This document shows positions 6,649 to 43,300 of a stretch of 64,000 bases of DNA, piece by piece. Under the pieces are notes generated by a model. That model saw only the letters and a list, made by a program, of their open reading frames with translations, had not been told where the DNA came from and searched no databases. Origin of the DNA: an uncultured Gammaproteobacteria bacterium (GTDB taxonomy: Bacteria; Patescibacteriota; Microgenomatia; UBA8517; UBA10165); the NCBI GenBank assembly GCA_964472675.1, contig CAYYLO010000004.1, positions 1,602 to 65,601 of the forward strand. The letters run 5' to 3'. Within the stretch, counting starts at the first letter, position 1. Each line of letters begins with the position of its first letter. Both the position numbers and the translations under genes were made by a program.

Positions 6649-7965
6649 CTACTCCTCTTGGAGTGAAAAGCAGCTTAGCAAAGCATAGAACGACACTCCG
6701 ATCAGGAGAGCTCCGGACAGTCCCCACACCGCCAGTGGTGAGATATAGGTGGATAGGATTCCGGAAAGGAGCAGCCCAAGTGCTGCGCCCAGAGTTTGGA
6801 CAGAACTGCGGATTGAGTTGCACTCTGAGCGCTTTTCGGCTGTTAGGAAGCGATTGCTGTAAGTGAACAATACTGGTCCCAAGGCTCCTCGGCCAACTTC
6901 ATGAGCCAGGAAGAATCCTAGTAGAAGCCAGCTGTAGCTGAAAAGCGAGGTAAGCAGCATGGGTAGGCCGATAGTTAGCATGATAAACGCAACACTTGCC
7001 CGATCTGGAAGGAGATGATGGGAGTGGGCCAGGTCTGATCCCCACGCGGCAGCCAAAGCGATTCCAGCCCACACTACTCCCAGAAGAAACTGAGGTATCT
7101 GAGCTTCCTTCAAGACTGGCGGCCAGAACATATTAAATGGCTGGAAAGCCAGGTTTGCGAAGAAGGCAACCACGATGACGAAGCGCAAGTTCCGGCTTCT
7201 GATCATCTCTCCTGAGCTGGCTTTGAGGTTGGCAAACACAGAGGGTAGGCTCACCTTCTGGCCTGCACACGCCACATCGTCGGGGAGTTGTCGTGTTAGC
7301 CAGAAAACCAACCCTGCTGCTGCCAGAGACGAAACTCCGGCCAAAAGCCATGGCCACTGTAGTCCCCAGGTTGTGCCTACTATGCCTCCCAAGATAGCTG
7401 TGGGGATACTGGCCCAGTTGGCCCATTTCCCCGCCTTGGCCAGGGTTTTGTGAGTAACCTCCTCGTTGGTGTTGTTTAATAGCCACGAGTCCAGGGCCCC
7501 CGACTGCAGCGAATGACCCAGGGCTCCGACGAGCTCAGCCAAGGCAAAGTAGGCCATGTGTCCTCCGAAGCCATAGATGAACATGCCTGCGCCCCAACAG
7601 ACCAGACCCCAGATGTACAACTTTTTTTGTCCCCAGCGATCAGCCAGATGCCCTGTCGGAGGGTCAAGAATGAAGTTACTGGCCATGAAGACGATGTTGA
7701 GCATATTGGCATCCAGAAGCGTATATCCGAAGCTGAGGATAAACAGTACATAGGTGCTGAAAAACCAGCTTGAGGACGCTCGCTGTAAGACGGAAGCCAC
7801 GAGGAAGGCTCGGACAATTTTTTGTTCCACGATCACACTCTCCTGTTTTGTTAAGGTGCCGGCCAAAGCCAAGCCTATTTTTTTAGGCTGGTATTTAGCC
7901 GGAAAAACCTCCGAAAAAGTGGATTTGTAAAAAAAGCCTCCTTTACCGGAGGCTTGCGCGGACAA
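6649..7965 (-). CDS. MFS family transporter
   Basis: About 12 TM helices and the MFS signature D-R-x-G-x-K region (LADRWGQKK). GC content is ~52%, well above the genome background. Confidence 0.8.
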   Translation of the reverse strand: MSAQASGKGGFFYKSTFSEVFPAKYQPKKIGLALAGTLTKQESVIVEQKIVRAFLVASVLQRASSSWFFSTYVLFILSFGYTLLDANMLNIVFMASNFILDPPTGHLADRWGQKKLYIWGLVCWGAGMFIYGFGGHMAYFALAELVGALGHSLQSGALDSWLLNNTNEEVTHKTLAKAGKWANWASIPTAILGGIVGTTWGLQWPWLLAGVSSLAAAGLVFWLTRQLPDDVACAGQKVSLPSVFANLKASSGEMIRSRNLRFVIVVAFFANLAFQPFNMFWPPVLKEAQIPQFLLGVVWAGIALAAAWGSDLAHSHHLLPDRASVAFIMLTIGLPMLLTSLFSYSWLLLGFFLAHEVGRGALGPVLFTYSNRFLTAEKRSECNSIRSSVQTLGAALGLLLSGILSTYISPLAVWGLSGALLIGVSFYALLSCFSLQEE

Positions 7966-15274: not shown

Positions 15275-15859
15275 ATGGCTGCATTGCGCGATTTTATAGT
15301 TTCAAAAGTTAGAGTCAAAATAATAAAAATTCTTCTGGAGAATCCGACAGAGATGTATTATGTTCGCGATCTGGTTAGAAGGACTGGAGAAGAGATCAAT
15401 GCTGTTAGGCGTGAACTTTCCCGCATGGATGAGGCAAGTATGGTTAAGAAAGAGGCAAGGGGCAACAGGCTCTACTATTGGTTCAGGACAGACTACCCTT
15501 TCTACTCGGAGCTGTTAAGTTTGGTTGCCAAAACCACTGGTTTGGGGGCGCGCATTCGCAAAAACAAAGGCAAAATTGGCAGGCTTACTTTTGTCGTTTT
15601 TTCTGGTGAGTTTGTGCGCAGGCGACCAAAGATAAACGCCGACCAGGTTGACATCCTTGTCGTAGGGGATGTGGTTTTGCCTGAACTTGCAGGGTTAATA
15701 CGTCAGGAAGAATCTGTTCGCAATCATGAGATTAACTATACGCCGATGACCAGAGATGAGTTTGAGTTTCGCAAAAAGCGCCGTGACCCATTCGTGTTGG
15801 GGATTTTAACCTCTGCCCGCTTTATGATTCTTGGAGATGAACAGGAGTTTGTATCGTGA
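15275..15859 (+). CDS. Winged-helix transcriptional regulator family protein
   Basis: An ArsR/MarR-like wHTH at the N-terminus (IIKILLENPTEMYYVRDLVRRTGEEINAVRRELSRM). Its final 10 codons are duplicated 242 nt downstream. Confidence 0.5.
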   Translation: MAALRDFIVSKVRVKIIKILLENPTEMYYVRDLVRRTGEEINAVRRELSRMDEASMVKKEARGNRLYYWFRTDYPFYSELLSLVAKTTGLGARIRKNKGKIGRLTFVVFSGEFVRRRPKINADQVDILVVGDVVLPELAGLIRQEESVRNHEINYTPMTRDEFEFRKKRRDPFVLGILTSARFMILGDEQEFVS

Positions 15860-16094
15860 GAGTTATGGATATCTGCTCAGCAACAGTTTCTAAAAGGCGA
15901 CGTCGGCTGTTTTGTGGTGAAAATACGTTTTACTTGGCCGCGTCTACAGGTCTCGACGAGCGCCAAAATATTTCTTATATGAAATTTTTACGTGCTCGTC
16001 TGCGACAGTCTTTTAAAAATATTGCTTCACAGATATCTGCACACGCGACTTGTATTAAAACTTCTATGATTCTTGGAGATGAACAGGAGTTTGT
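15824..16094. repeat. Two 30-nt direct repeats (t/c-tatgattcttggagatgaacaggagtttgt) at 15823-15852 and 16065-16094, flanking a 212-nt insert with internal palindromes
   Basis: Read directly from the sequence. It duplicates the 3' end of the upstream CDS and creates a spurious 81-aa ORF. Confidence 0.7.
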
Positions 16095-19198: not shown

Positions 19199-20532
19199 TT
19201 AAATTCTTGAATGCGGGCAAGAAGATGCTCTCTTTCATTTTTTGTTTGGTCTTCTTCAACTTCTTCAAAAAGTTTTTGCAGGATTTCACCCACCTTTGGT
19301 CCGGAGGGGATTTTTAAGATTTCCATTACATCCCTCCCGTCAACTTTTAAATCTTTAACAGAAAATGGTTGGTGTTGAACTTCTTCTAAACGCTTTTTGA
19401 ACTTTTCAAGCCGCCAGGAAGTTTCCTGCACCCCTCCTCCCAGGCGATCTCCAACCCGTAGATCTAACATATCTTGTAAATTTTCTACGCCTACATTTTT
19501 TATGAATCGCCTTAAAGCTGAATCGGTTTGTTGGTCATCAACGCTAAATTGATGCCAGCGAACTAAAATCCAAAGCTTGTCTTTTTGTTTTTTGGAGAGC
19601 CGTAGCCGATCGGCAATTTCTTTAACTTGCCGGGAACCAATTATTTCGTGATTATAAAAAGTTACTATTCCCTTTGGAGTAAGCTTGCGCGTTTGAACTT
19701 TGCCAATGTCATGAAGCAATGTTGCCAGACGCACCAGCGGGTTTTTGGAAGGGCAATTTTTCAAAGCGTTTAAACAATGGGTGTAAACATCGAAAACGTG
19801 ATGTCTCTGGGGACTTTTTTGCTCGACTCCAATTCCTGCTACCAATTCCGGAAGAATGTAAGTTAATAAGCCCGATGCGTAGAGCATTGTAATCCCCTCG
19901 TCGGGAAAATCGGACTTCAAAATTTTAAATAATTCGTCTCTTATCCTTTCCCATGAGACATGCTTTATGTTTTCAGAGTGCATTTTTATTGCCTGAAAAG
20001 TATTTTCTTCAATAGCAAATCCCAACTCAGCGGCAATTCTTATAGCGCGCATCATGCGAAGTGCGTCCTCGCTGAATCTGTCGATTGGGTTTCCAACTGC
20101 GCGAATTAATTTTTTCTTAATATCCTCATGTCCGCCAAAGGGGTCAATAATTTTTTTATTGGCAGGAATGGCCATGGCGTTGATGGTAAAATCACGCCTG
20201 CTTAAATCTTCTTCTAGGTCCTTGCCCCAAGTGACGGTGTCCGGTCTTCTTTTGTCAGAATAACCGTGTTCTGTTCTAAAAGTTGTAATTTCATAAGGCT
20301 TTTCTTCTCCTTCTTTTGTTATTCCCACGGTCCCGAATTGATTATTGTAAAATCCGTCAGGGAAGAGATTTAATATTTGTTCAGGTGTAGCATCCGTGGT
20401 AAAATCCCAGTCATTAGTTTTTCTATTTAGCATTAAATCCCTCACGACGCCTCCGACAATATAGATTTGGTAACCCGACCGCTCAAAGGTGTGCAAGATT
20501 TTTTTGACAAACGGGGGGAAATCGATTTGCAT
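19195..20532 (-). CDS. cca: CCA-adding tRNA nucleotidyltransferase with a C-terminal HD domain. ATG at 20532 is preferred over the TTG at 20571.
   Basis: Pol-beta NTase motif GGVVRDLMLNRKTNDWDFTT and HD motif ATLLHDIGK. Confidence 0.85.
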   Translation of the reverse strand: MQIDFPPFVKKILHTFERSGYQIYIVGGVVRDLMLNRKTNDWDFTTDATPEQILNLFPDGFYNNQFGTVGITKEGEEKPYEITTFRTEHGYSDKRRPDTVTWGKDLEEDLSRRDFTINAMAIPANKKIIDPFGGHEDIKKKLIRAVGNPIDRFSEDALRMMRAIRIAAELGFAIEENTFQAIKMHSENIKHVSWERIRDELFKILKSDFPDEGITMLYASGLLTYILPELVAGIGVEQKSPQRHHVFDVYTHCLNALKNCPSKNPLVRLATLLHDIGKVQTRKLTPKGIVTFYNHEIIGSRQVKEIADRLRLSKKQKDKLWILVRWHQFSVDDQQTDSALRRFIKNVGVENLQDMLDLRVGDRLGGGVQETSWRLEKFKKRLEEVQHQPFSVKDLKVDGRDVMEILKIPSGPKVGEILQKLFEEVEEDQTKNEREHLLARIQEFK

Positions 20533-20549
20533 GGTATTATTGTAGCAAA

Positions 20550-22286
20550 ATGACAACAAATAAAACGACAAGCATAGATGGAGTGGTAGAAATCCTTTTG
20601 AAAAATCGGGGATTAACCACAGAAAAAGAGAAGGAAGAATTTTTCAATCCTCCGGATCCTCAAAATCTTAACCCTAAGGATTTAGGGATAGACGTAAAAC
20701 AGTTAGATAAAGCAATAAAAAGAATTTTTGTGGCAATTGAGAAAAAGGAAAAAATAATTGTTTATGGAGACTATGATGTTGATGGAATTTGCGCATCTGC
20801 AATTTTGTGGGAAACTTTGCGCTTTTTAGGGGCAAATGCAATGCCTTACGTACCTGGCCGTTTTGCGGAAGGGTACGGCTTAAATATTGAGAGTATCCGA
20901 AAACTGAAAGAGGAAGATTCTGATGTTGGTTTAATTATTACAGTCGACAACGGAATTGTTGCCCATGAGAAAGTTGATTTTGCAAAAAGCTTGGGCGTTG
21001 ACGTGGTTATCACCGATCACCACATTCCAGGTGAAACTTTGCCCAATGCTTACACCATAGTCCATACAACCCAAATGTCAGGGGCAGCAGTTTCGTGGTT
21101 TTTGGCAAAGGCTTTAATGGAGGTGACGGGTCCTACCACGGGCTCGTCCCGTCCGACCTCCTCGTCCGCCTTTGGCGAGACTGCGGGGGCTCGACGGGAC
21201 TCCCTCCGCCCGTGCCACCCATCACAATCATTCTTACATGATCATCTTGGTTTAGCGGCTTTAGGTACGGTGGCCGATGTGTTGCCGTTAGTTGGGCACA
21301 ATAGGTCTATTGTTGTTTATGGCTTGCGAGCTTTGCGAAATACTTCCCGTGTTGGGATTAAATCTTTATGTAAAGAAGCAGGAATAGAGCAAAACGATAT
21401 CGACACTTTCCATATTGGGTTTGTTATCGCTCCCCGGATGAACGCAATGGGTCGTTTAGAGCATGCCATGGAGTCTTTACGGCTTTTGTGTACGAATGAT
21501 AAGGAAAAAGCAGCGACCCTGGCTTTTGATTTAGGCAAAACCAACAAAATTCGCCAGGAAAAGACGGAAAATATTTTTAAACATATCCAGGAAAACTTTG
21601 AAAGTGTTTGGAACCAAAAACTCCCCGGGGTTTTACTGGCGGCGCATGAAACTTATGAGGAAGGGGTTGTGGGAATTGTTGCCGGGCGTTTGGTGGAAAA
21701 ATATTATCGTCCTTCGATTGTTGTCTCCCGCGGCAAAGAAGTATCTAAGGCCTCGGCTAGGTCAATCACGGGCATAGATATTATTCAGCTTATTCGTGAG
21801 GTAGGCGACGGACTTTTAATAAACGCTGGAGGGCACCCAATGGCGGCGGGCTTTAGTCTTTCTACTGCAAAACTGGAAGACTTTGGCAAAAAGCTTGTCA
21901 AGTATTCTTCAAAATTTAGTGAACGCGATTTTGTCAGAGAGGCAAAAGTTGACTGTGAGATTGATTTTTCTTTGCTAACCAATTCTCTTTATAAAAAACT
22001 TTTAGAATTTGCTCCTTTTGGTTTTGGCAATCCGACACCTGTTTTTATGACCCGCAATGTACAAATTGGCGATGTGAGGTTAATGGGCAAAGACAAAAAC
22101 CATTTAAAACTTTTGCTAACTCAGGAAGGGTTCGGTACTATGGAAGCTGTAGGTTTTAGAATGGGTGAATTGTATTCTTCTTTATCTCCCGGCTCGTCAG
22201 TGGACGTAGTCTACTCTTTAGAAGAAAACGTTTGGAACAACCACAAATCTCTCCAGCTAAAACTTAAAAACATATATATAGTTTGA
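20550..22286 (+). CDS. recJ: Single-stranded-DNA-specific exonuclease RecJ
   Basis: DHH motifs (DYDVDGICASAIL, DHH), the DHHA1 domain and a C-terminal OB fold. It carries a ~38-aa GC-rich in-frame insert (GPTTGSSRPTSSSAFGETAGARRDSLRPCHPSQSF). Confidence 0.9.
   Translation: MTTNKTTSIDGVVEILLKNRGLTTEKEKEEFFNPPDPQNLNPKDLGIDVKQLDKAIKRIFVAIEKKEKIIVYGDYDVDGICASAILWETLRFLGANAMPYVPGRFAEGYGLNIESIRKLKEEDSDVGLIITVDNGIVAHEKVDFAKSLGVDVVITDHHIPGETLPNAYTIVHTTQMSGAAVSWFLAKALMEVTGPTTGSSRPTSSSAFGETAGARRDSLRPCHPSQSFLHDHLGLAALGTVADVLPLVGHNRSIVVYGLRALRNTSRVGIKSLCKEAGIEQNDIDTFHIGFVIAPRMNAMGRLEHAMESLRLLCTNDKEKAATLAFDLGKTNKIRQEKTENIFKHIQENFESVWNQKLPGVLLAAHETYEEGVVGIVAGRLVEKYYRPSIVVSRGKEVSKASARSITGIDIIQLIREVGDGLLINAGGHPMAAGFSLSTAKLEDFGKKLVKYSSKFSERDFVREAKVDCEIDFSLLTNSLYKKLLEFAPFGFGNPTPVFMTRNVQIGDVRLMGKDKNHLKLLLTQEGFGTMEAVGFRMGELYSSLSPGSSVDVVYSLEENVWNNHKSLQLKLKNIYIV
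21124..21237. repeat. GC-rich ~110-nt repeat-family copy inserted in frame in recJ
   Basis: ~70% GC in a 40% GC gene. It aligns at ~70% identity with the intergenic element at 25690-25795: both share ggtcctRcc...cgtSCgacSTcctc...gctcSacggg.gacYccc.cgcYc.tgcSYcaccc. Confidence 0.5.
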
Positions 22287-22340
22287 ATTTACAACAAGTT
22301 ATTGTGTTCCAGCTTTAATTTAAAGTAAAATGGTCATATT

Positions 22341-23654
22341 ATGAAGCGAATACTTTCTTCTGATTTGCCAAAGCACATAAACGAAGAAGTTGTGGTTTCA
22401 GGCTGGCTTCATAAAAGGAGAGAGCTTGGAGGGATGACTTTCCTGGTTTTGCGGGATAGAGATGGCTTAGTTCAAATTTTGGCTGAAAAATCCCAAGGAA
22501 TCGAAAAATTAGAAGGTTTGCAAAATGGAACGATCCTTACAGTAAAAGGTACAGTTGTAGAAGATGAGCGGGCGCCTCAGGGGGTAGAAATCCACAACCC
22601 TGAAATTTCAGTAGATGTCCCCGTTGAGTATGTTGTGCCAATTGAGGTTGATAAACCCATAGATCATTCACCAGAAAATTTAGAGACGCTTTTTGAAAAC
22701 AAGGTGGTAAACATGCGCAACACAGTCGAAAGAGGAATTTGGAAAATCCAGGCTACTGTGGGAGATGCGGCTCGGGAATATCTAAAATCTCAGGATTTTA
22801 CAGAGTTTCATAGTCCTAAGTTATTAGCCGAGGCAACCGAGGGCGGGGCAGAAGTTTTCAAACTGGATTATTTCGGGAAAACTGCAACATTGGCCCAATC
22901 TGCACAATTTTATAAACAAATAATGGTGGGTTCTTTGGAGCGCGTTTTTGAAATTGGCGCAACATACCGGGCAGAACCAAGTATGACTACCCGCCATATG
23001 ACTGAGTTTGTCACTATTGACGTTGAGATGGGGTTTATCGAAGGATTTCAGGATTTGCTACGCCTTTTAAGTGGGTTAGTAAACCACGTTGCAGGGTACG
23101 TTTGGGAGCACAATGGAGAAGAACTAGAGACACTTGGCGCCCAAAAGCCGATTTTGAAAGAAGAGTTCCCCCAAGTGACGTTAAAAGAGCTGCATGAACT
23201 TTTTCTCAATGAAACTGGAACTGATGCAACAAAAGAACCAGATCCAACGCCCGCAGAGGAGAGATTTATAAGCGAATATTCGGCTCAGAATTGGGGTTCC
23301 GAGGCGGTTTTTGTGACCGAGTTTCCTTCTTCCCATATGAAGTTTTACCATTATAAGAGTGACAGAGACCCTGAGGTTGCCGAACGGGCAGACTTGATTT
23401 TTAGAGGTGTTGAGATTGTGACAGCATCCCAGCGCGAACATCGCTATCCAAAGCTTGTAGAACAGCTTAAAGCCATGGGTGGGAATTCAGAACATCCAGG
23501 ATATAAATATTATTTGGAAGCGTTTAAATACGGAATGCCCGCACATGGAGGCTTTGGCTTGGGACTTGAGAGGTTGACTCAAAAGATTATTGGCCTTAAT
23601 AATGTAAAAGAAGCAACACTTTTCCCTCGAGATATCAATAGGCTCGCGCCCTGA
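22341..23654 (+). CDS. aspS: Aspartyl-tRNA synthetase, archaeal/eukaryotic type (class IIb; AsnRS not fully excluded)
   Basis: N-terminal OB anticodon-binding domain, motif 2 (FRAEPSMTTRHMTEF) and motif 3 (GGFGLGLERL). The ~437 aa size fits archaeal-type AspRS. Confidence 0.75.
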   Translation: MKRILSSDLPKHINEEVVVSGWLHKRRELGGMTFLVLRDRDGLVQILAEKSQGIEKLEGLQNGTILTVKGTVVEDERAPQGVEIHNPEISVDVPVEYVVPIEVDKPIDHSPENLETLFENKVVNMRNTVERGIWKIQATVGDAAREYLKSQDFTEFHSPKLLAEATEGGAEVFKLDYFGKTATLAQSAQFYKQIMVGSLERVFEIGATYRAEPSMTTRHMTEFVTIDVEMGFIEGFQDLLRLLSGLVNHVAGYVWEHNGEELETLGAQKPILKEEFPQVTLKELHELFLNETGTDATKEPDPTPAEERFISEYSAQNWGSEAVFVTEFPSSHMKFYHYKSDRDPEVAERADLIFRGVEIVTASQREHRYPKLVEQLKAMGGNSEHPGYKYYLEAFKYGMPAHGGFGLGLERLTQKIIGLNNVKEATLFPRDINRLAP

Positions 23655-23657
23655 CAA

Positions 23658-24605
23658 ATGCCCAAGAAACCGACATCAAAAACCAGCCCTTTTGACAGCA
23701 CACAGTTTTTATTCCTGGTACTTTTCGTCCTAATCATGTTGATAAGTTGGGGGATATTTTTTGCTCCACAAAAAGAGGCCAAGGTATCAAAAAAGCTTTC
23801 TCAAGAACCAAAAGTTAAAGTAAGCACCGAGGCCAAAGTTCCCACTCCCCAACTGAAAAACCAAGTGACACCTCCCTCTAGCGCAACTGCAAGATCTTAT
23901 TATGCGATAGATGTCAAAACCGGTACTCAACTTCTAGCCAAAAGAGAAGACGAACCGCAACTGCCGGCATCTACAACCAAAATGGCGACAGCTTTGGTTG
24001 CGATGTCATATTACAAACCGGATGACGTAATTACTGTAGGAGTTACCAGAAGTGGTGGACACAAAATGGGTTTGGTGTATGGCGAGCAAATCACCACAAG
24101 AGATCTTCTTTATGGATTATTAGTTTTTTCCGGGAACGATGCTGCTGAAGTATTAGCACAAAACTATCCGGGAGGAAGAGGAGAATTCGTTGCTTCCATG
24201 AACAATTTGGCAAAGAAGTTGGAACTTACCAATACGAATTTTACAAATCCTGCGGGATTTGATGAGTACCTTCACTTTTCTTCGGCAAAAGATTTAGTGA
24301 AACTGGCACTTCATGGAATGGAAAACTCTCTATTTGCCCAAATTGTTGGAACTAAAAATATCAAAATAACAAGTGTTGATGGCAGTATAGTTCACAGTGC
24401 AGAGAACACAAACCGATTAATTGAGAAAATGCCGGGGATTTTAGGAGTAAAAACTGGGTGGACAGAAAATTCCGGGCAAGATTTGGTGACTTTATACGAA
24501 CGCGACGGACATCGGGTTATGCTTGCCGTTTTGGGGTCTACAGACCGTTTTCGTGAAACCCAAACTCTTCTCAACTGGATTTTTGATAATTATGAATGGA
24601 AATAA
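23658..24605 (+). CDS. D-alanyl-D-alanine carboxypeptidase (PBP5/6 family, S11)
   Basis: SxxK (ASTTK), SGN (FSGNDAA) and KTG (VKTGWT) motifs in the canonical order. An N-terminal TM helix and a Pro-rich linker precede them. Confidence 0.8.
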   Translation: MPKKPTSKTSPFDSTQFLFLVLFVLIMLISWGIFFAPQKEAKVSKKLSQEPKVKVSTEAKVPTPQLKNQVTPPSSATARSYYAIDVKTGTQLLAKREDEPQLPASTTKMATALVAMSYYKPDDVITVGVTRSGGHKMGLVYGEQITTRDLLYGLLVFSGNDAAEVLAQNYPGGRGEFVASMNNLAKKLELTNTNFTNPAGFDEYLHFSSAKDLVKLALHGMENSLFAQIVGTKNIKITSVDGSIVHSAENTNRLIEKMPGILGVKTGWTENSGQDLVTLYERDGHRVMLAVLGSTDRFRETQTLLNWIFDNYEWK

Positions 24606-24612
24606 TTAAGGT

Positions 24613-25668
24613 TTACTGGGCGCCGTACCACTCGTTTGTTACAGCAGGGATGATAGCGCGGAAGCCGTTGTCGCCGTCAAAAACTACAACTGGCTCTAAA
24701 AACTGTTGCACTTTTCCGGAATCATAATAACCAAGATAAACGCGGCGGATTACTACCTGGTTTGTTGAACTTGGCGTAGAAATAATCATTCCTTTGCCGG
24801 CTTGCAACTCGTCCCACGCAATTTTAGAGGTTTTGATTGGATAAGTAGACCTTTGGTTTTCGCTAATTGCAAAGTAGTGGTACTCTCCAGCTATTATTTG
24901 TTTATAGGTTGAGCTTGATCCGCTGACCAAAAACCAAACATTACTTCTGTCAACTCTTGGGGTAATAATCGGCAGATCGTCGTACTCTTTTCTCCAAAGA
25001 TTTACCCTGATAAAGTTGGCGTCTGATAATGAGCCAACAGTCTGCAAAGCCTCAGGTGCAGTTCTTAGATAATCAAAAGTTTGTTTGCCCTGGTCAAGGT
25101 CGGGAGTAAGCAGTGATGCGCGATTTAGAAAAGATCTTGTTGCAGCCAGCGCGTCTTCATCTGACTTGGGATGTAGGTTAAGCAGGCTTGCATCTTGAGC
25201 AAGGTTGTAGCTTAAAGAAAGTGTTTTGTTAACTATGTTAATATCTAAAGTTGCGGGAACTTCCGTGTGTGTGTACCTGTATATTACTTCCGAAAGGGAT
25301 ACTCCTGAATTTGAGAAGTTTAAGCTTTTGGCAATTTTATTGGCATCGTCAAGACTCAAGAAGGAAGATTGAGGAGTTGGCATGAAAAAAACATTTACCT
25401 GTGTTGGAAATTTGGGAAGTTCTCCCGTTGGGGTTTGCAATGTGTAGGTGAGTGCGGGAATAGCTAGCTTTGGGTCAAATATTAAAGCTGGCAACTTGTT
25501 AAATCTATCTTGTGGCGGGGGGGGGGGAGCTGGAAAAATTTTTCTGTAAGCTGAGTAGCCTACGGTCCACATGATGTTTATGGAAATTAAGGCAACAATA
25601 AAAATTGTGCCGAATTTTATGGCGCGCCTGGTTTGGAATGCTGTTTCAGTTAAAGACATTGTTGTCAT
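24613..25668 (-). CDS. Hypothetical secreted/membrane-anchored protein containing a C11 (plus strand G11) homopolymer in its 5' region
   Basis: An N-terminal TM helix, then APPPPPQ encoded by the homopolymer. No family recognised. Confidence 0.5.
   Translation of the reverse strand: MTTMSLTETAFQTRRAIKFGTIFIVALISINIMWTVGYSAYRKIFPAPPPPPQDRFNKLPALIFDPKLAIPALTYTLQTPTGELPKFPTQVNVFFMPTPQSSFLSLDDANKIAKSLNFSNSGVSLSEVIYRYTHTEVPATLDINIVNKTLSLSYNLAQDASLLNLHPKSDEDALAATRSFLNRASLLTPDLDQGKQTFDYLRTAPEALQTVGSLSDANFIRVNLWRKEYDDLPIITPRVDRSNVWFLVSGSSSTYKQIIAGEYHYFAISENQRSTYPIKTSKIAWDELQAGKGMIISTPSSTNQVVIRRVYLGYYDSGKVQQFLEPVVVFDGDNGFRAIIPAVTNEWYGAQ
25517..25527. repeat. G11 homopolymeric tract inside the 24613-25668 CDS
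   Basis: tgtggc + 11 G + agctgg, read directly. It codes PPPP on the minus strand. Confidence 0.9.
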
Positions 25669-25689
25669 GACATTGGGGGTTATACAGGG

Positions 25690-25795
25690 TGTTCGGGGTC
25701 CTGCCGCGCCGCACCCCCGTGCGACGTCCTCACCTCATCGGTTGCGGGCGCTCCACGGGGGACCCCCGCTCTGCGTCACCCCTCACTAGGCAGTG
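25690..25795. repeat. GC-rich repeat-family copy, intergenic, upstream of gltX
   Basis: About 70% GC and ~100 nt; it aligns with the recJ in-frame element and creates spurious ORFs 25571-25789 and 25689-25883. Confidence 0.45.
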
Positions 25796-25866
25796 CCGCC
25801 CACTACTATTCTTAGCTTATCAAGTTGCTTTCAGTATACGCACAAAAAGTGTTAGAATCAATCTTA

Positions 25867-27159
25867 ATGGCCAAACAAGTTAGGGTTAGAATTGCCCCGT
25901 CGCCAACAGGCTTTGCGCATATTGGTACAGGTTATATGGCGTTGTTTAATTATGCTTTTGCTAAAAAAAACAACGGCACCTTCATTGTTAGACTTGAGGA
26001 TTCAGACTTAAAACGCCATGTTCCCGGAGCCGAAGAGGCAATTTATGCTGGGTTAAACTGGTTAGGGCTGAAATGGGACGAAGGGCCAGATGTGGGCGGC
26101 CCTTTTGCCCCTTATCGGGTTTCTGAGAAATTAGACTTATATAAAAAAATTGCTGAGAAACTTATTAGTGAAGGAAAAGCATATCAAGATGAAGGGGCCG
26201 TTAGTTTCAAAAATACAGGTGATGATATGGGGTGGACTGATTTAGTCAGGGGTGATATTGTCTTTCCTGGAAGCGAAGTAACAGATTTCGTAATAATGAA
26301 ATCAGATGGGTACCCTACATATAACTTCTATGTGGTCGTCGATGATGTGCAGATGGAGATAACCCACATTATCCGTGGGGAAGAACACATTTCTAACACT
26401 CCGCGCCAGCTTGCTTTATACAAGGCGCTAAACTATGAAGTTCCACAGTTTGCACACTTGCCAACCTTGAGAAACTCAGAGCATAAGAAGCTCTCTAAAA
26501 GAAGGGACCCTGTCGATTTGCGTCTTTATAGGGGACAAGGGTATTTGCCAGAAGCGTTAATTAACTTTTTATGTCTTTTAGGCTGGTCCCATCCGGAAGG
26601 TAAAGAGCTTTTCAATTTAGATGAGTTTATTGAAAAATTCACTCTTGAAAGAGTGCGCAAAGCCGGGCCGGTTTTTGATACCAAAAAACTGGATTGGTTA
26701 AACGGCATGTATATTCGCCAAATGGATAATGTAGCTTTAGCATCAACCCTCAATAGATTCATTTCTGCCGACACTTCAACCCAATTCTTGCTGAAAATAG
26801 TTCCTTTAATTAAGGAACGGATTAGTAAGCTGGGGGATGCCGAAAACCTTTTAAAGTTTTTCTGGAAAAAACCGCAAGTTGGGCGTGAGATGTTTAAGAA
26901 CGATAAATCTTTAGAGTTTATAACTTCTGCTCTGGAAGTGTTAAGAGAAACAGCGGATTGGACTTTAGAATCCGTGAACGAAGCCCTTGCGCAAAGGGTT
27001 AAAGACAAGGGCTATAAAACAGGCGAGTTTTTTATGTGTTTAAGGTTGGCAATTACAGGACAGGAAGTTACGCCTCCTTTAAACGAATCAATGGTAATAT
27101 TAGGTAAAGAGGAAGTTTTGGTTAGGCTTGAAACAGCTCAAAAGGTACTTCTTGACTAG
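25867..27159 (+). CDS. gltX: Glutamyl-tRNA synthetase. ATG at 25867 is preferred over the upstream in-frame ATG at 25825.
   Basis: Class I HIGH motif (PSPTGFAHIGT) and KMSKS (KLSKR). Confidence 0.9.
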   Translation: MAKQVRVRIAPSPTGFAHIGTGYMALFNYAFAKKNNGTFIVRLEDSDLKRHVPGAEEAIYAGLNWLGLKWDEGPDVGGPFAPYRVSEKLDLYKKIAEKLISEGKAYQDEGAVSFKNTGDDMGWTDLVRGDIVFPGSEVTDFVIMKSDGYPTYNFYVVVDDVQMEITHIIRGEEHISNTPRQLALYKALNYEVPQFAHLPTLRNSEHKKLSKRRDPVDLRLYRGQGYLPEALINFLCLLGWSHPEGKELFNLDEFIEKFTLERVRKAGPVFDTKKLDWLNGMYIRQMDNVALASTLNRFISADTSTQFLLKIVPLIKERISKLGDAENLLKFFWKKPQVGREMFKNDKSLEFITSALEVLRETADWTLESVNEALAQRVKDKGYKTGEFFMCLRLAITGQEVTPPLNESMVILGKEEVLVRLETAQKVLLD

Positions 27160-27162
27160 AAA

Positions 27163-28152
27163 ATGAATGATACTGCCCGAACCAGAAAAGCTCAAATAAG
27201 AAGTAAGCTTAAGCTTCGGCATTTAGCGGCAAAATCTTCATTTGCTCAAAAACATCCTCACGCAAAGTCTTTCTTTGATAATTCCGGAATTGACCTTGGG
27301 AAAATTAGACAGCATTCTACAAAATTGTTGACGGCTGGGGCTATCTCTGGCGCTTTGCTTTTGCCAGCGGTAAGCCATCTAACTCCGCTTCCTTCAACTT
27401 CCGCCACGATACATCGTGAGCCAAAAAACACCAACAACCTCACAGTGCCTCTTTCTGTTTCGGGAGTAGTTACAAGTACAGGACCAATTTCTTCCTCCCT
27501 TCCACGGCAATTTTTGGTTGGTAGACTTGCTCAGGTCTTACCTCCAATAGTTGACCGATTTTCACCGCATATTTCATACGAAGCAGAGAAAATAGCTGCC
27601 CAAATAGTAAGTCGCGCAACGGGTGTCCCTGCAAAAGCAAGTCTTGAAGGAGAGCGGTTAAACACTACATATGGGTACATAGGTATAGAGCAGCATTTAG
27701 CCAGGTATCCTGGCGATTCAATTGCCAAACACGGTTTGCCCAAAGAAGGTATGGCGCCAGGCTTAGGGGGATTTGGGTATTTCAATACGGCATCTGTTTT
27801 AACCCAAGATGCCATAACGCGAGAAAAATATTATGTGGTTGCTCAACTAATGTATTTGCCGGATTGGGGTAAAAGGACAAGATACTTGGCAAATTGGTAT
27901 AAATGGAGAAAGATGATTGTAGTCAATCCCGATAATGGGAATGCGGTTGTCGGGGATTTGGGGGACGCCGGGCCGGCGGCCTGGACTGGAAAACAATTTG
28001 GCGGCAGCCCAGAAGTTATGGACGCGCTGGGTGGTCATAGGTATACAAAAGGTCGAGTGCTATTTTTCTTTGTTGATGATGCGGAAAACAAAATTCCTTT
28101 GGGCCCTGTAAAATATGATGAAATCTCTAGCAATATAATGCAAGCAATATGA
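27163..28152 (+). CDS. RlpA-like double-psi beta-barrel (DPBB) domain protein, a putative cell-wall lytic enzyme, with an N-terminal TM helix
   Basis: The C-terminal block MIVVNPDNGNAVVGDLGDAGPAA...GKQFGGSPEVMDALG follows the RlpA pattern (V.N..NG.SVVVRVNDRGP...IDLS.AA...LG). Confidence 0.45.
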   Translation: MNDTARTRKAQIRSKLKLRHLAAKSSFAQKHPHAKSFFDNSGIDLGKIRQHSTKLLTAGAISGALLLPAVSHLTPLPSTSATIHREPKNTNNLTVPLSVSGVVTSTGPISSSLPRQFLVGRLAQVLPPIVDRFSPHISYEAEKIAAQIVSRATGVPAKASLEGERLNTTYGYIGIEQHLARYPGDSIAKHGLPKEGMAPGLGGFGYFNTASVLTQDAITREKYYVVAQLMYLPDWGKRTRYLANWYKWRKMIVVNPDNGNAVVGDLGDAGPAAWTGKQFGGSPEVMDALGGHRYTKGRVLFFFVDDAENKIPLGPVKYDEISSNIMQAI

Positions 28153-40376: not shown

Positions 40377-43300
40377 ATGGACAAGCTAAAACGGATATTA
40401 TCCCTAACGACACTTTTGCTGGTGCTTAGTAACAGTATACTTCCATATTACTCTTCAGCAAATGTGGTTTTTGCACAAGAAGTAAATGCAACACCTGCCG
40501 CTACTTCGGAAGTGGACGAACCACTTCAGACTTCTTCTGCGCCCACACCAACACCAGAACCAACACCTTCTGAAATTCTTACACTAACACCAACACCAAC
40601 TCCTACTCCTGAAACTGAACTTACTCCAATGCCGGCTGAACAAGAAACAACTGACAACGCTCTACCTGCACCAACCCCTACACCTACACTTTCTGTTGAA
40701 CAGACTGTTATTTCCACACCAATCCCAGTGCCTGTGCCTGCACCTGCACCTGTGCTATTAGCTTGGAAGAATATTGATTCAGCAACAGTTGAAACTATGG
40801 ATAATGTAGAAGCTAACAAAGATTACACTGCTCCTCAAAATGATAAGGTGAAAGTTAACTTTACCAAACTTCCTGAGATTGCTGGAAAACTAACTATTAA
40901 AGAAATTAAATTGTCTTCTAGCCAGGTGGAACAGTTGAAAGCTGTTTCAGACACAGCTTATGAAATTACTTCCACTATGGCTAACGGAACATTTAACTAT
41001 GACTTAACCCTGCCTTTATCAGAGCAAGCCAAAGGCAAGAAGCTGGAAGTAAAAACAGCGGAATCGCAAGAAAAGCTGGACAAAGCACAAACTGTTAATG
41101 AGCCAAAAGAGGAAAAAGCGGATACAATTGCTATTAAAGATTTAAACCATTTTACAGTCTTTGTTATTACCACCCCAGATCCTGACACTACTCAAAAAGT
41201 CTTGATTAATGAAGTAGTTCCAAATCCTCTGAATGGGGCAGAATGGATTGAGCTTTTTAATAACAGCACTCAAGCTACAAACTTAGGAGTGGGAAGCGGT
41301 TGGACTATCAGAAATTCTACTGGCGATACCAGGTCTTTAAGCTCCTTAGGCACTGTTACTGCTTCCGGCAGAGTAGTTTTTGAGGCTCCTGCCAATTGGT
41401 TAAGCAATACTGCCCCTGAAACTATTACTCTATCAAATGAGTTAGGAACACCGGTTGATACAGTGACCATATCTTTAACCTCCCCGGGTTTTGTCATTGA
41501 TCATTACCCGCTGGCTAACGAATCAGTTGGAAGAAAAACAGACGGAGTTGCAGAATGGGTCATCTTTACTATTCCCACCAGAGGCACAGCTAATGTTTTG
41601 CCTAAAACGACAACTAGCCTCTCCGAAGCAGGTCCAATTGCCCCTGAAGGTGGTCTTATGGCAGGTTTCCCATCCTGGTACAAAGACTCTAATGGTTTGG
41701 CGCTTGATTTAATGGAAGCAGCTGATGGTTTTGGTATCTCTGATCCAGTTGATCCATCTAATCCATTTTCACAAACTATTGGCTTTAATGCTGAAGGATT
41801 TTGGTGGTCAGCTGAGGCTTCTATTGACCGCCCAGTAGGCACACGCACCATACTGGTGTTGGCAGTTGAGGCTGCCTTTGCCGGAGAAGCAGCAGTTGAT
41901 GGGGAACAATCAGTGCAAAACAGGCTCAGATACAGGATTGATGGACTGGTACCTGGTGAAACCTATACCATTACCCACCCTTTTGGCACTGTGAAAGAAG
42001 TTGCTGAAGATGATGGGACAATCAATGTCACTGATGACATTGGATGCTTTGCCGGAGGAGGAGTGACCTGCAATCAAACAGCTTCCCCTAACTTTGCCAC
42101 AGCTTTGAACGGTCAAGTAGGGCCATTCTTAACCTGGACCACCTTTAATACTAACCCAGCTTTAACTGACCCTCAACTTACTAATCCTGCCAACCCAAAC
42201 AGAAGATATGTTGGTAATCCCACTATTGAACATGAGGTAACAGGCAGCCCAACAGGCAATAACTTCTTCAGAGTCCAAGGCAAGGATGTGGGTGGCCCTG
42301 GAGTTAACCAAATCCAAACCAACTTATTTGCAGTTTCAGGAAGGCTGGCAGATACAAATGCTCCTGTGATTACCCTTTTTGGCAGTAATCCTGTAAATGT
42401 CAATCAAAATGCTTCTTATATTGATGCTGGAGCAAGTGCTTTAGATGATCTGGGCGGTAACTTAACCGGCAATATTGAAGTTAGCGGTTTGCCTGTTGAC
42501 ACTTCTACCATTGGTGTAAAAACAGTCACTTATACTGTAACTGACAGCGCAGGCCGTACATCCCAAGCAACCAGAACTGTTAATGTAGTTAATCTGGTAG
42601 CGGTAGGAGAAGCAGATACTGTTGCTCCCTTAATCACTATACTTGGGGCAAATCCTGCTTTTGTCACTGTTGGCACACCATATACTGATGTTGGAGCAAC
42701 AGCTTTAGATAATGTTGACGGAGATATTACCGGAAGTATTATCACCACGGGTTTGCCGGTTATTACATCAACAGTTGGCACATTTACTGTTACTTATAAT
42801 GTGGCGGATAGCGCAGGTAATGCAGCAATTCTAGCAAAAAGGACTGTTAATGTGGTAGCAGATACTACTGCTCCTGTAATTACTATGCTGGGGTCAAATC
42901 CTGTCAATATCTTTACAGGCGCTGCTTACTCAGATGCCGGAGCCACAGCCTTGGATGATGTTGACGGAGATATTACCGGGAGTATTGTTACTACGGGTTT
43001 GCCTGTCGATACGTCAAAAGCAGCTACTTTTACCATTACTTATGAAGTAGTTGATTCAGCTGGCAATCCTGCCATTGCAAAAAGAACAGTTAAGGTAGCA
43101 GAAACTTTGCCCGCCAGCCTCTCCGAAGCAGGTCCAATTGCCCCTGAAGGTGGTCTTATGGCAGGTTTCCCATCCTGGTACAAAGACTCTAATGGTTTGG
43201 CGCTTGATTTAATGGAAGCAGCTGATGGTTTTGGTATCTCTGATCCAGTTGATCCATCTAATCCATTTTCACAAACTATTGGCTTTAATGCTGAAGGATT

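What the first reader, a model, noticed from the sequence alone, without database searches (positions are those of the whole stretch)
21124..25795. GC-rich ~100-nt repeat family with one copy in frame inside recJ and one intergenic copy upstream of gltX
Two segments of ~70% GC stand out in this 40% GC genome: 21124-21237 inside recJ, and 25690-25795 between a secreted-protein gene and gltX. They align at roughly 70% identity over ~100 nt.

The recJ copy is a multiple of 3 and adds ~38 aa (GPTTGSSRPTSSSAFGETAGARRDSLRPCHPSQSF) just before the conserved AALGT(V/I)ADV block, without breaking the frame.

In-frame insertion of small palindromic elements into housekeeping genes is the hallmark of Rickettsia palindromic elements (established knowledge). 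I am not aware of this being described for CPR-like genomes.
Basis: seen in the sequence. Interest (0 to 1): 0.65.

Follow-up and report, generated by a model that had tools for sequence, protein, structure and literature searches.

The report
GC-rich hairpin repeats inside CPR genes
The two GC-rich patches are copies of a roughly 100-base hairpin-forming mobile DNA element that is widespread in the tiny "candidate phyla radiation" (CPR) bacteria. It is usually found inside essential genes and read through in frame, the behaviour made famous by the Rickettsia palindromic elements, and I found no description of it for this group.

Summary
Window 21120-21228 (inside recJ) and 25688-25789 (upstream of gltX) are 70% and 74% GC in a 42% GC Candidatus Blackburnbacteria genome. 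They are 67% identical, and a covariance model finds only these two copies in the 64 kb.

They belong to a large family. One strict 36-nt pattern found 36 further loci in CPR genomes and 76 in metagenomes, and none in viral contigs. The element is an imperfect hairpin with fixed ends (GGGTCCTG...CACCC), four helices and a variable tip. On 85 distinct copies, 94% of cells pair and 15 of 27 pairs show compensatory changes.

At least 49 of 76 distinct copies lie inside long ORFs read through in frame (RecJ, TopA, LeuRS, DnaX, CarB, AtpA, LepA, FolD and others), in either orientation. All 33 sense copies use one frame (xGPxxxxRPTSS). In RecJ the insert is a disordered loop between two helices.

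Copies that are 95-99% identical sit at unrelated sites, so the element has been mobile recently. Its orientation follows the G-rich DNA strand, whichever way the neighbouring genes point. This suggests single-strand, replication-coupled transposition, but that step is inferred and no transposase was found.

Verdict: a new family of Rickettsia-palindromic-element-like elements.

The parts
21120..21228 (+). Element copy 1 (hairpin repeat, family A), inside recJ in the sense orientation.
   Evidence: Covariance model R1 scores it at 91 bits over the full model length. GC is 69.7%. It folds to -59.1 kcal/mol, z = -4.2. It matches the family pattern GGGTCCT..C..........CCCG..CGAC.TCCTC at 21128-21163.
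21123..21236 (+). The translated insert in RecJ, residues about 192-229: TGPTTGSSRPTSSSAFGETAGARRDSLRPCHPSQSF.
   Evidence: Translation. The segment is absent or shorter in most orthologues. In the AlphaFold model, pLDDT is below 50 for residues 195-223, a coil between helices 178-192 and 226-242, while the whole model averages 88. It uses the same reading frame as all 33 sense-oriented genic copies elsewhere.
20550..22286 (+). recJ, the host gene (single-stranded-DNA-specific exonuclease, 578 aa).
   Evidence: ORF. Homologues carry Pfam DHH, DHHA1 and RecJ_OB, and the best hits are named Candidatus Blackburnbacteria RecJ.
25688..25789 (+). Element copy 2 (family A), intergenic, in the divergent spacer between the 351-aa membrane-anchored protein gene and gltX.
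   Evidence: R1 scores it at 83 bits over the full model length. GC is 73.5%. The spacer is about 200 nt here but about 50 nt in relative L003, which lacks the element. Copies sit at the same place in L002 and L006.
24613..25668 (-). Neighbouring gene (351 aa, no Pfam family). Its likely 5' leader runs through copy 2 in the antisense direction.
   Evidence: ORF. A promoter-like site on the minus strand lies to the right of the element. That the leader contains the element is an inference.
25833..25861 (-). Promoter-like site (TTGATT-17-TATACT) facing the 351-aa gene, on the far side of copy 2.
   Evidence: Consensus scan found 1 site against 0.3 expected. This is weak evidence.
25868..27159 (+). 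gltX (glutamyl-tRNA synthetase), downstream neighbour of copy 2. Its conserved start and the conserved sequence just upstream of it lie downstream of the element.
   Evidence: ORF list and Pfam tRNA-synt_1c in syntenic loci. The conserved ATGGCCAAACA start and the GTGKTAGAAT motif before it are seen in the alignment; reading that motif as the promoter is my inference.

Best explanation
Both segments are copies of a non-autonomous, hairpin-forming mobile DNA element of about 85-135 nt. The family is widespread in CPR/Patescibacteria, especially the Microgenomates group.

Shown:
- The element is an imperfect palindrome with conserved termini (5'-GGGTCCTG ... CACCC-3'), four helices kept by compensatory changes, conserved bulges and a tip of variable length.
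- It occurs at many unrelated sites. Most are inside housekeeping genes, in either orientation relative to the gene. There it is read through in frame and adds about 30-45 residues.
- Nearly identical copies sit at unrelated sites, including within one genome. Old copies decay to end-only scars.
- Its orientation follows the G-rich DNA strand, not the direction of the host gene.

Inferred:
- It moves as single-stranded DNA at the replication fork. The strand written above lies on the lagging-strand template, and a trans-acting enzyme that recognises the hairpin does the work, as Y1/HUH transposases do for IS200/IS605 ends and REPs.
- In a genome that is about 90% coding, most landings are in genes. 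Only copies that keep the frame and translate into a flexible Gly/Pro/Ser/Thr/Arg-rich surface loop survive.
- In this window, RecJ tolerates the element as a disordered loop in its DHH domain. The intergenic copy sits in the leader or promoter spacer of the neighbouring gene, with no demonstrated role.
For: Family size and distribution. One 36-nt pattern with 21 fixed bases gives 37 loci in species-representative genomes (36 in low-GC, mostly CPR-labelled MAGs, 1 chance hit), 76 in metagenomes and 0 in viral contigs. Every complete pattern match except one truncated copy (L045) has the matching 3' half within 185 nt.

Structure. RNAalifold on 28 copies gives 27 pairs, 12 of them with compensatory changes. 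On 85 distinct copies 94.2% of cells pair, against 82.1% in shuffles and 39-48% in slid controls. There are 298 doubly changed cells against 90 +/- 12 in shuffles, and 15 of 27 pairs have double changes.

Genic, in-frame residence. 49 of 76 distinct copies lie inside ORFs of at least 150 aa with at least 25 aa on each side. Of these, 33 are sense and 16 antisense. Pfam confirms the hosts: ATP synthase alpha, CarB, the PolI 5'-3' exonuclease, a P-type ATPase, LepA, TopA, LeuRS, DnaX, FolD and RNase HII, with domains split by the insert. The RecJ insert is a coil with pLDDT below 50 between helices.

Recent mobility. Element pairs are 94-99% identical while their flanks are unrelated. L026/L042 (TopA and a glycosyltransferase, same genome) are 97.7% identical, L030/L034 (same contig) 96.6%, and L028/L051 98.9%. 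Between L002 and L005, four-fold sites of recJ are saturated (28% identity), yet the insert is 75% identical and shares an identical nested 47-nt piece.

Decay. L003 recJ keeps only the element ends. There is a 19-nt scar GGGTCCTGTCGTGCCACCC in L023/L048 and a truncated copy in L045.

Strand rule. Read on the element's strand, flanking GC skew is positive in 43 of 47 copies. Third-codon-position skew is positive in genes on the same strand (39:4, mean +0.178) and in genes on the opposite strand (32:3, mean +0.165). Both window copies lie on the + strand, and window skew is positive in 7 of 8 bins.

Precedent. IS200/IS605 transposition is single-stranded and strand-specific, and it inserts into the lagging-strand template (PMC5027513).
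Against: - No transposase or autonomous parent was found. No 5' end is separated from a 3' end by a gene. tblastn with recalled IS200 TnpA and RAYT sequences found nothing at E < 0.3 in about 1 Mb of held DNA.
- No target duplication or target motif could be established.
- The 5' half looks more conserved than it is, because the search pattern fixed 21 of its bases.
- The recJ loop and the gltX spacer carry copies in genomes as distant as 50% RecJ identity. A purely random-insertion model does not predict this. It needs old insertions refreshed by conversion, site preference, or selection.
- The exclusive use of one frame by the 33 sense copies is explained only by an assumed peptide-tolerance filter.
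- Equating 'G-rich strand' with 'lagging-strand template' rests on the general rule. Some Microgenomates have atypical whole-chromosome skew (PMC7143001).
Confidence: 0.75

Rival explanations
1. The hairpin is a host-useful signal on single-stranded DNA at the replication fork or in chromosome architecture, in the way REP/BIME elements or primosome-assembly hairpins are. On this view purifying selection maintains it and it is not purely selfish.
For: There is a strong strand rule relative to GC skew. The core sequence is conserved and the helices covary across distant CPR lineages. Copies occupy the same recJ loop and gltX spacer in Blackburnbacteria and Levybacteria while neutral sites are saturated.
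Against: Close relatives differ in presence or absence at the same site, and copies decay to scars. Positions are scattered across unrelated genes with no regular placement. Near-identical copies at unrelated sites indicate proliferation. Only about one copy per 30-60 kb was seen.
Confidence: 0.1
2. It is a structured RNA that acts in the transcript: a cis-regulatory element, a ribozyme or a small RNA gene.
For: The covariation is as strong as in curated RNA families. The recJ copy folds stably, z = -4 to -5.
Against: There is no Rfam match at E <= 1. Copies lie in both orientations relative to host genes, 33 sense and 16 antisense. Orientation follows the DNA strand asymmetry and not the gene direction. 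G-U pairs are not clearly favoured over A-C mismatches (72 against 42, with two columns accounting for the excess). The gltX copy lies upstream of what looks like the gltX promoter (that reading is an inference).
Confidence: 0.05
3. The insert is removed or skipped rather than translated, as with an intron, an intein-like segment or a translational bypass (T4 gene 60, or the 'byps' of yeast mitochondria).
For: GC-rich palindromic inserts in AT-rich coding regions are bypassed in Magnusiomyces mitochondria (from my own knowledge, not checked here).
Against: All 49 genic copies keep an open frame through the element, including AT-rich tips of up to about 55 codons, and they restore the host frame. 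Removal would not require this. Antisense copies cannot share an RNA-level removal signal with sense copies. No self-splicing RNA family matched.
Confidence: 0.03
4. It is a native variable loop of RecJ that happens to resemble an unrelated GC-rich spacer, or it is an assembly or contamination artefact.
For: The pairwise similarity of the two window copies is only modest on its own. One of 1000 shuffles reached the observed score.
Against: About 120 further copies share the same termini, helices and core in independent assemblies. An identical RecJ with the insert is present in GenBank assembly GCA_016187265.1. Orthologues with and without the insert exist.
Confidence: 0.01

Closest known systems
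Rickettsia palindromic elements (RPE-1 to RPE-10; Ogata et al. 2000, as summarised in the review PMC10969869)
   Same: Both are palindromic repeats of about 100-150 nt with no gene of their own. Both have tens of copies per small genome, and a large share sit inside unrelated housekeeping genes and are read through in frame. Both give a recognisable conserved peptide and lie in places compatible with the protein fold.
   Different: There was no sequence relationship detected: the peptides hit no Pfam or NCBIfam model. The host is a different phylum, free-living or epibiotic CPR rather than Rickettsia. This element is GC-rich in an AT-rich genome. It is used in both orientations. It shows a strong orientation rule relative to strand asymmetry, which I do not know to have been reported for RPEs.
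REP/REPIN elements with RAYT (TnpA-REP), and the ends of IS200/IS605 insertion sequences and their gene-less derivatives
   Same: These are imperfect hairpins with conserved unpaired bases, recognised as single-stranded DNA. They lack classical long inverted terminal repeats. [quoted passage not shown] The strand rule found here is what that mechanism predicts.
   Different: REPs are about 20-40 nt and extragenic. This element is about 100 nt and mostly intragenic. No Y1/HUH gene was found near any copy. No conserved 5' tetranucleotide guide or target was identified.
Classical bacterial MITEs (Correia, ERIC, BOX, RUP, Nezha and others)
   Same: They are small, non-autonomous, fold-back repeats that occasionally create in-frame fusions (PMC10969869).
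   Different: Classical MITEs have terminal inverted repeats matching a known IS and have target-site duplications. Neither could be shown here.
Mobile GC clusters and 'byp' elements of yeast mitochondria (from my own knowledge)
   Same: They are GC-rich palindromic mobile elements in AT-rich genomes that can sit inside coding regions.
   Different: The byp elements are skipped by the ribosome and need not keep the frame. Here every genic copy keeps the frame.

Membership tests
In-frame palindromic repeats of the RPE kind (behavioural class) | A multi-copy, dispersed repeat of about 100-150 nt with no coding capacity of its own. | tested here: met
   There are 2 copies in the window, 36 genome loci and 76 metagenome loci, and up to 4 copies per genome with the strict pattern. 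The covariance model found about 13 extra copies in about 850 kb of flanks.
In-frame palindromic repeats of the RPE kind (behavioural class) | Palindromic, hairpin-forming sequence. | tested here: met
   There are 27 pairs in 4 helices, 94% of cells pair, and 15 pairs show compensatory changes. The controls fail.
In-frame palindromic repeats of the RPE kind (behavioural class) | A large share of copies lie inside protein-coding genes, keep the frame and give a conserved peptide. | tested here: met
   49 of 76 distinct copies are genic and open. All 33 sense copies read xGPxxxxRPTSS. The hosts were verified with Pfam.
In-frame palindromic repeats of the RPE kind (behavioural class) | The insert sits where the protein fold tolerates it, in a surface loop. 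| tested here: met
   This was tested for RecJ only. Residues 195-223 have pLDDT below 50 and form a coil between confident helices. Pfam domains are split into two stretches around inserts in CarB, the 5'-3' exonuclease and LeuRS.
Rickettsia palindromic element families RPE-1 to RPE-10 (membership by sequence) | Sequence similarity to an RPE family or its peptide domain. | tested here: not met
   The insert peptides in three frames hit no NCBIfam or Pfam model at E <= 1. Nucleotide comparison with RPE consensus sequences was not possible because none were held.
IS200/IS605-type or REP/RAYT-type single-strand elements | Orientation bias relative to replication, with the active strand on the lagging-strand template. 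| tested here: met
   The element strand coincides with the G-rich strand in 43 of 47 loci. Third-position skew is positive in genes of both orientations, 39:4 and 32:3. Replication direction itself is inferred from skew.
IS200/IS605-type or REP/RAYT-type single-strand elements | An associated Y1/HUH transposase gene in the genome. | tested here: inconclusive
   None was found in about 1 Mb of held flanks by tblastn with recalled TnpA and RAYT sequences. Whole genomes could not be searched.
IS200/IS605-type or REP/RAYT-type single-strand elements | A conserved short guide or target sequence 5' of the hairpin, and no target duplication. | tested here: inconclusive
   The first flanking base pairs with its partner in 65 of 72 copies, which extends the hairpin by one pair. 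Direct-repeat signals are confounded by subfamily flanks (CTCG...CTCG) and by palindromic GC...GC.
Classical MITE | Terminal inverted repeats that match an autonomous IS, plus a target-site duplication. | tested here: inconclusive
   The termini GGGGTCCTGYC / GRCACCCC are shared by two subfamilies whose cores differ. No autonomous partner was found, and the duplication is unresolved.
Rfam structured RNA families | A match to a curated covariance model. | tested here: not met
   No match at E <= 1 overlaps either copy.

The most novel reading that the evidence does not exclude
The hairpin is not merely selfish DNA. It would be a strand-specific single-stranded-DNA module kept by selection across CPR bacteria. 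[quoted passage not shown] Its one 'protein-friendly' sense frame would then be an evolved adaptation that lets it live inside essential genes of genomes with almost no non-coding space.
Probability: 0.15. Interest if true: 0.85.

Novelty: new member of a known kind. Interest (0 to 1): 0.66.

Why it matters
Rickettsia palindromic elements have stood nearly alone as selfish DNA that routinely lives inside essential protein-coding genes. A 2024 review still singles them out (PMC10969869).

This is a second, unrelated family with the same habit. It is spread across many CPR lineages, whose genomes are about 1 Mb with very little spacer DNA.

It matters for four reasons.
- It shows how mobile DNA can persist in streamlined genomes, by being translated as harmless loops.
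- It explains the odd GC-rich, Ser/Pro/Arg-rich inserts that inflate and confuse alignments of CPR marker proteins such as RecJ, TopA, LeuRS, DnaX, CarB and AtpA.
- It provides a strand marker that may report replication direction in uncultivated genomes.
- It points to an unidentified hairpin-recognising mobilisation system in CPR bacteria.

Tried and rejected
- Rfam scan of 20000-27000 at E <= 1 found nothing at either copy.
- The gapless repeat finder on the whole window missed the pair because the copies differ by indels.
- The other mild GC islands in the window (7480-7546, 27927-28012, 46512-46571) are not copies. The covariance model with filters off scores nothing else above 9 bits.
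- A viral-contig scan with the family pattern gave 0 hits.
- A profile of the sense-frame peptide was searched against 5.8 billion proteins. Only 3 hits reached E <= 10, because a 30-aa low-complexity segment cannot reach significance at that database size. This was uninformative.
- I searched for an autonomous parent. Every complete pattern match has its 3' half within 185 nt, apart from one truncated copy (L045), and the orphan 5' ends in the held loci are scars, truncated copies or chance matches.
- tblastn with IS200 TnpA and RAYT sequences written from memory gave no hit at E < 0.3. The best partial hit, in L105, is a membrane protein.
- The G-U versus A-C test for an RNA strand gave 72 against 42, driven by two columns, and is not decisive.
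- The target-site duplication test was confounded and is inconclusive.
[quoted passage not shown] The one multi-term hit (PMC8629427) concerns codon reassignment, not this element.
- A detection artefact as the cause of the strand rule is rejected. The search pattern is C-rich and would decay faster on the strand that loses C, which is the opposite of what is seen (my reasoning, applied).
Full report
**Observation**

The window is 42.2% GC. Only two stretches reach 75% GC or more in 80-nt windows: 21108-21237 and 25666-25819. They align in the same orientation with 66 matches over 98 columns, which is 67% identity. The local alignment score is 33, against 17.5 +/- 3.0 for shuffles.

The first stretch lies inside ORF 20550-22286, a RecJ exonuclease, and is read through in frame. 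The second lies between the start of a minus-strand 351-aa gene and gltX.

An identical RecJ, insert included, is on GenBank contig JACPKD010000045.1 of assembly GCA_016187265.1. The best homologues are named Candidatus Blackburnbacteria, in the Microgenomates group of the CPR.

**RecJ orthologues**

I aligned 27 orthologues. The extra segment falls in a loop of variable length just before the conserved DHLGLAALGTVAD block.

- Most Microgenomates RecJ proteins have a short loop there.
- P0001 (about 80% identical) has a longer insert.
- P0012 (58% identical) and P0051 (a Levybacteria protein, 50% identical) carry related peptides.
- P0002-P0004 (about 80% identical) keep only TGHVLGSS...HPSQS.

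At the DNA level these last genes retain the first 27 or so bases and the last 10 or so bases of the element, with the interior deleted.

An AlphaFold model of the window protein is confident overall (mean pLDDT 88). It gives pLDDT below 50 and coil for residues 195-223, between helices 178-192 and 226-242. The insert is therefore a disordered loop in an otherwise normal RecJ.

**Syntenic loci**

I compared four relatives (L002, L003, L005, L006). GC-rich islands occur at the same two places and nowhere else in about 22 kb.

- The recJ loop carries one in L002, L005 and L006.
- The gltX spacer carries one in L002 and, more diverged, in L006.
- L003 has neither.
- L002 (both copies) and L005 carry an identical extra 47-nt hairpin nested in the 3' arm.

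**A large family**

From these copies I derived the pattern GGGTCCTNNCNNNNNNNNNNCCCGNNCGACNTCCTC. It matched three collections as follows.

- Species-representative genomes: 37 loci. These are Blackburn-, Levy-, Gottesman-, Woese-, Nomura- and Saccharibacteria, unnamed Patescibacteria, and some bins labelled otherwise. One match, in a 70% GC Nocardioides contig, is a chance hit.
- Metagenome contigs: 76 loci.
- Viral contigs: none.

One bin labelled Gammaproteobacteria (L013) has an ATP synthase alpha subunit 79-80% identical to that of a Patescibacteria MAG (L010), with the element at the same place. Some of these labels are therefore probably wrong.

A covariance model built from 28 copies finds exactly two copies in the window with filters off. 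The next best score is 9 bits. In the other loci it finds the seeded copies plus about 13 more diverged ones. That is roughly one extra copy per 50-60 kb, which suggests tens of copies per genome.

The pattern fixes 21 bases of the 5' half, so conservation of that half is overstated by the way copies were collected. The 3' half, the helices and the context statistics are not affected.

**Anatomy**

The element is one long imperfect hairpin. Its parts, from base to tip, are:

- a terminal helix (GGGT/ACCC, usually one or more further variable pairs);
- a conserved unpaired TCCTG;
- a helix whose sequence varies freely but stays complementary;
- a conserved helix CCCGYC/GRCGGG with a bulge;
- a further helix;
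- a tip of 8 to about 140 nt.

On 85 distinct copies, 94.2% of cells form standard pairs and 15 of 27 pairs show changes on both sides. There are 298 compensated cells against 90 +/- 12 in shuffles. Sliding the partner by 1-3 columns drops pairing to 39-48%.

G-U pairs (72) are not clearly favoured over A-C mismatches (42) once two columns are set aside. There is thus no signature of one RNA strand. No Rfam family matches.

A second subfamily shares only the termini (GGGGTCCTGYC ... GRCACCCC) and has a different core. This points to the termini and the fold as what matters.

**Where copies sit**

Of 76 distinct copies, 49 lie inside ORFs of at least 150 aa with at least 25 aa on each side, and the frame stays open through the element.

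Pfam confirms that the hosts are ordinary housekeeping proteins whose domains are interrupted: ATP synthase alpha, carbamoyl-phosphate synthase, the PolI 5'-3' exonuclease, a copper P-type ATPase, LepA, topoisomerase I (two sites), LeuRS (two sites), DnaX, FolD and RNase HII. By inspection the hosts also include dihydroorotase, glycosyltransferases and membrane proteins.

Thirty-three copies are in the sense direction and 16 are antisense. All 33 sense copies use a single frame, giving xGPxxxxRPTSS. Three further sense copies found only by the model use it too. Antisense copies use at least two frames equally (8:8), and a third frame appears at the C-terminus of AtpA.

None of the three sense frames contains stop codons in the conserved part. 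The single-frame rule is therefore not forced by stops. My best guess is that only this frame gives a flexible hydrophilic peptide. This is an inference, and the rule remains the least explained observation.

The peptides match no Pfam or NCBIfam model.

**Mobility and decay**

Element pairs that are 94-99% identical occur at sites whose flanks are unrelated. Examples are TopA and a glycosyltransferase in one Blackburnbacteria genome (97.7%), two sites 64 kb apart on one Levybacteria contig (96.6%), and DnaX versus an unrelated protein (98.9%).

Conversely, recJ of L002 and L005 is saturated at four-fold sites (28% identity), yet the inserts are 75% identical and share the nested piece. The 'orthologous' window and L002 copies differ by a block of fully compensated changes in the variable helix. 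These copies are therefore not evolving as neutral, vertically inherited sequence. They are either refreshed (by re-insertion or conversion from other copies) or constrained.

Decay products exist: end-only remnants in recJ of L003, a 19-nt scar and a truncated copy.

**Strand rule**

I read each locus on the element's own strand.

- Flanking GC skew is positive in 43 of 47 copies that have at least 5 kb of flank, and in 40 against 1 where |skew| exceeds 0.05.
- This is not a coding-strand effect. Skew at third codon positions is positive in genes on the same strand (39:4, mean +0.178) and equally in genes on the opposite strand (32:3, mean +0.165).
- The sense-to-antisense ratio (33:16) is about the share of coding sequence on that strand, 0.61.
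- Copies on the same contig almost always share orientation.
- In the window both copies are on the + strand. Skew is positive in 7 of 8 bins, and third-position skew is positive for genes of both orientations.

By the general rule, the G-rich strand is the parental template of the lagging strand. IS200/IS605 elements are hairpin-ended and move as single strands, and they show exactly this kind of bias (PMC5027513; PMC3333891 and PMC6006769). I therefore propose fork-coupled single-strand transposition by a hairpin-recognising enzyme supplied in trans.

This step is inferred. No such gene was found in the roughly 1 Mb of DNA held. No target motif or duplication could be established. Some Microgenomates have unusual chromosome-wide skew (PMC7143001).

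**The intergenic copy**

It widens the divergent spacer from about 50 nt (L003) to about 200 nt. The conserved sequence just upstream of the gltX start lies downstream of it. A promoter-like site for the minus-strand gene lies beyond it. The element is therefore probably in that gene's leader, in the antisense direction. No function is shown.

**Comparison with what is known**

The behaviour matches Rickettsia palindromic elements: small palindromic repeats, frequent in-frame residence in housekeeping genes, and a conserved peptide. A 2024 review still treats these as the outstanding case (PMC10969869).

By sequence this is a different family in a different phylum. It is GC-rich in an AT-rich genome, and it has a strand rule like that of single-strand hairpin elements.

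Searches of the held literature found no description for CPR bacteria.

I classify it as a new member of a known kind, with moderately high interest. The open mechanistic points could raise that. They are the mobilising enzyme, the single sense frame, and recurrence at the same loops.

Noticed in passing
window 25517-25527: A run of 11 G lies inside the minus-strand 351-aa gene, where it encodes a proline run. A homopolymer of this length is a possible slippage or phase-variation site, or a sequencing-error hotspot.
   Followed up: no
window 41616-41915 and 43116-43415; also 42347-47082: Two perfect 300-nt direct repeats lie 1500 nt apart. They sit within a region of diverged 220-nt repeat units (62-72% identical), apparently repeated domains of very large surface-type proteins.
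   Followed up: no
window 15823-15852 and 16065-16094: A perfect 30-nt direct repeat with a spacing of 242 nt.
   Followed up: no
L002 10700-10741 and 16385-16426; L005 10643-10684: An identical 47-nt extra hairpin (TCGTTCGAGTCTGAGCCTGAGGGCTCATCCCTCAGAGTCGAAGACCTC) is nested in the 3' arm of three element copies in two species. It is also read through in frame in recJ (DSSFESEPEGSSLRVEDLRS). It may be a second small insert within the element.
   Followed up: partly
L006 16968-17072, L052 4652-4753, L056 7539-7644, L118 5779-5911 and 7635-7766, L023 3040-3173, L013 4988-5119: A second subfamily has the same termini but a different core (…CCCTCCCGCCAGTGCTCG … CGCGCTGTCGGGAGCCCTTCC…). Only the covariance model found it.
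   Followed up: partly
L044 1072-1174 (-) and 1171-1270 (+): Two copies lie back to back in opposite orientation and overlap by a few bases. This is one of the few exceptions to the shared-orientation rule.
   Followed up: no
L023 and L048 (GGGTCCTGTCGTGCCACCC); L045 11548 onward: There is a 19-nt scar made of the two element ends joined directly, and a copy that has lost its 3' half. Decay seems to proceed by deletion of the hairpin interior.
   Followed up: partly
L013, L017, L023, L037-L039, L041 (labelled Gammaproteobacteria); L011, L018 (labelled Acidiferrales): These low-GC MAG contigs carry the element. L013 also has an AtpA 79-80% identical to that of a Patescibacteria MAG, with the element at the same site. 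The taxonomic labels of these bins are probably wrong, or the bins are contaminated.
   Followed up: partly
window 27927-28012 and L003 17479-17548: A GC-rich patch of about 70% lies inside the gene downstream of gltX. It is conserved in the relative and is not a copy of the element.
   Followed up: partly
L037 about 7700-7760: One element copy ends about 25 nt before what looks, by eye, like the start of a tRNA gene. The family is therefore also found next to RNA genes. No tRNA search was run on this locus.
   Followed up: no
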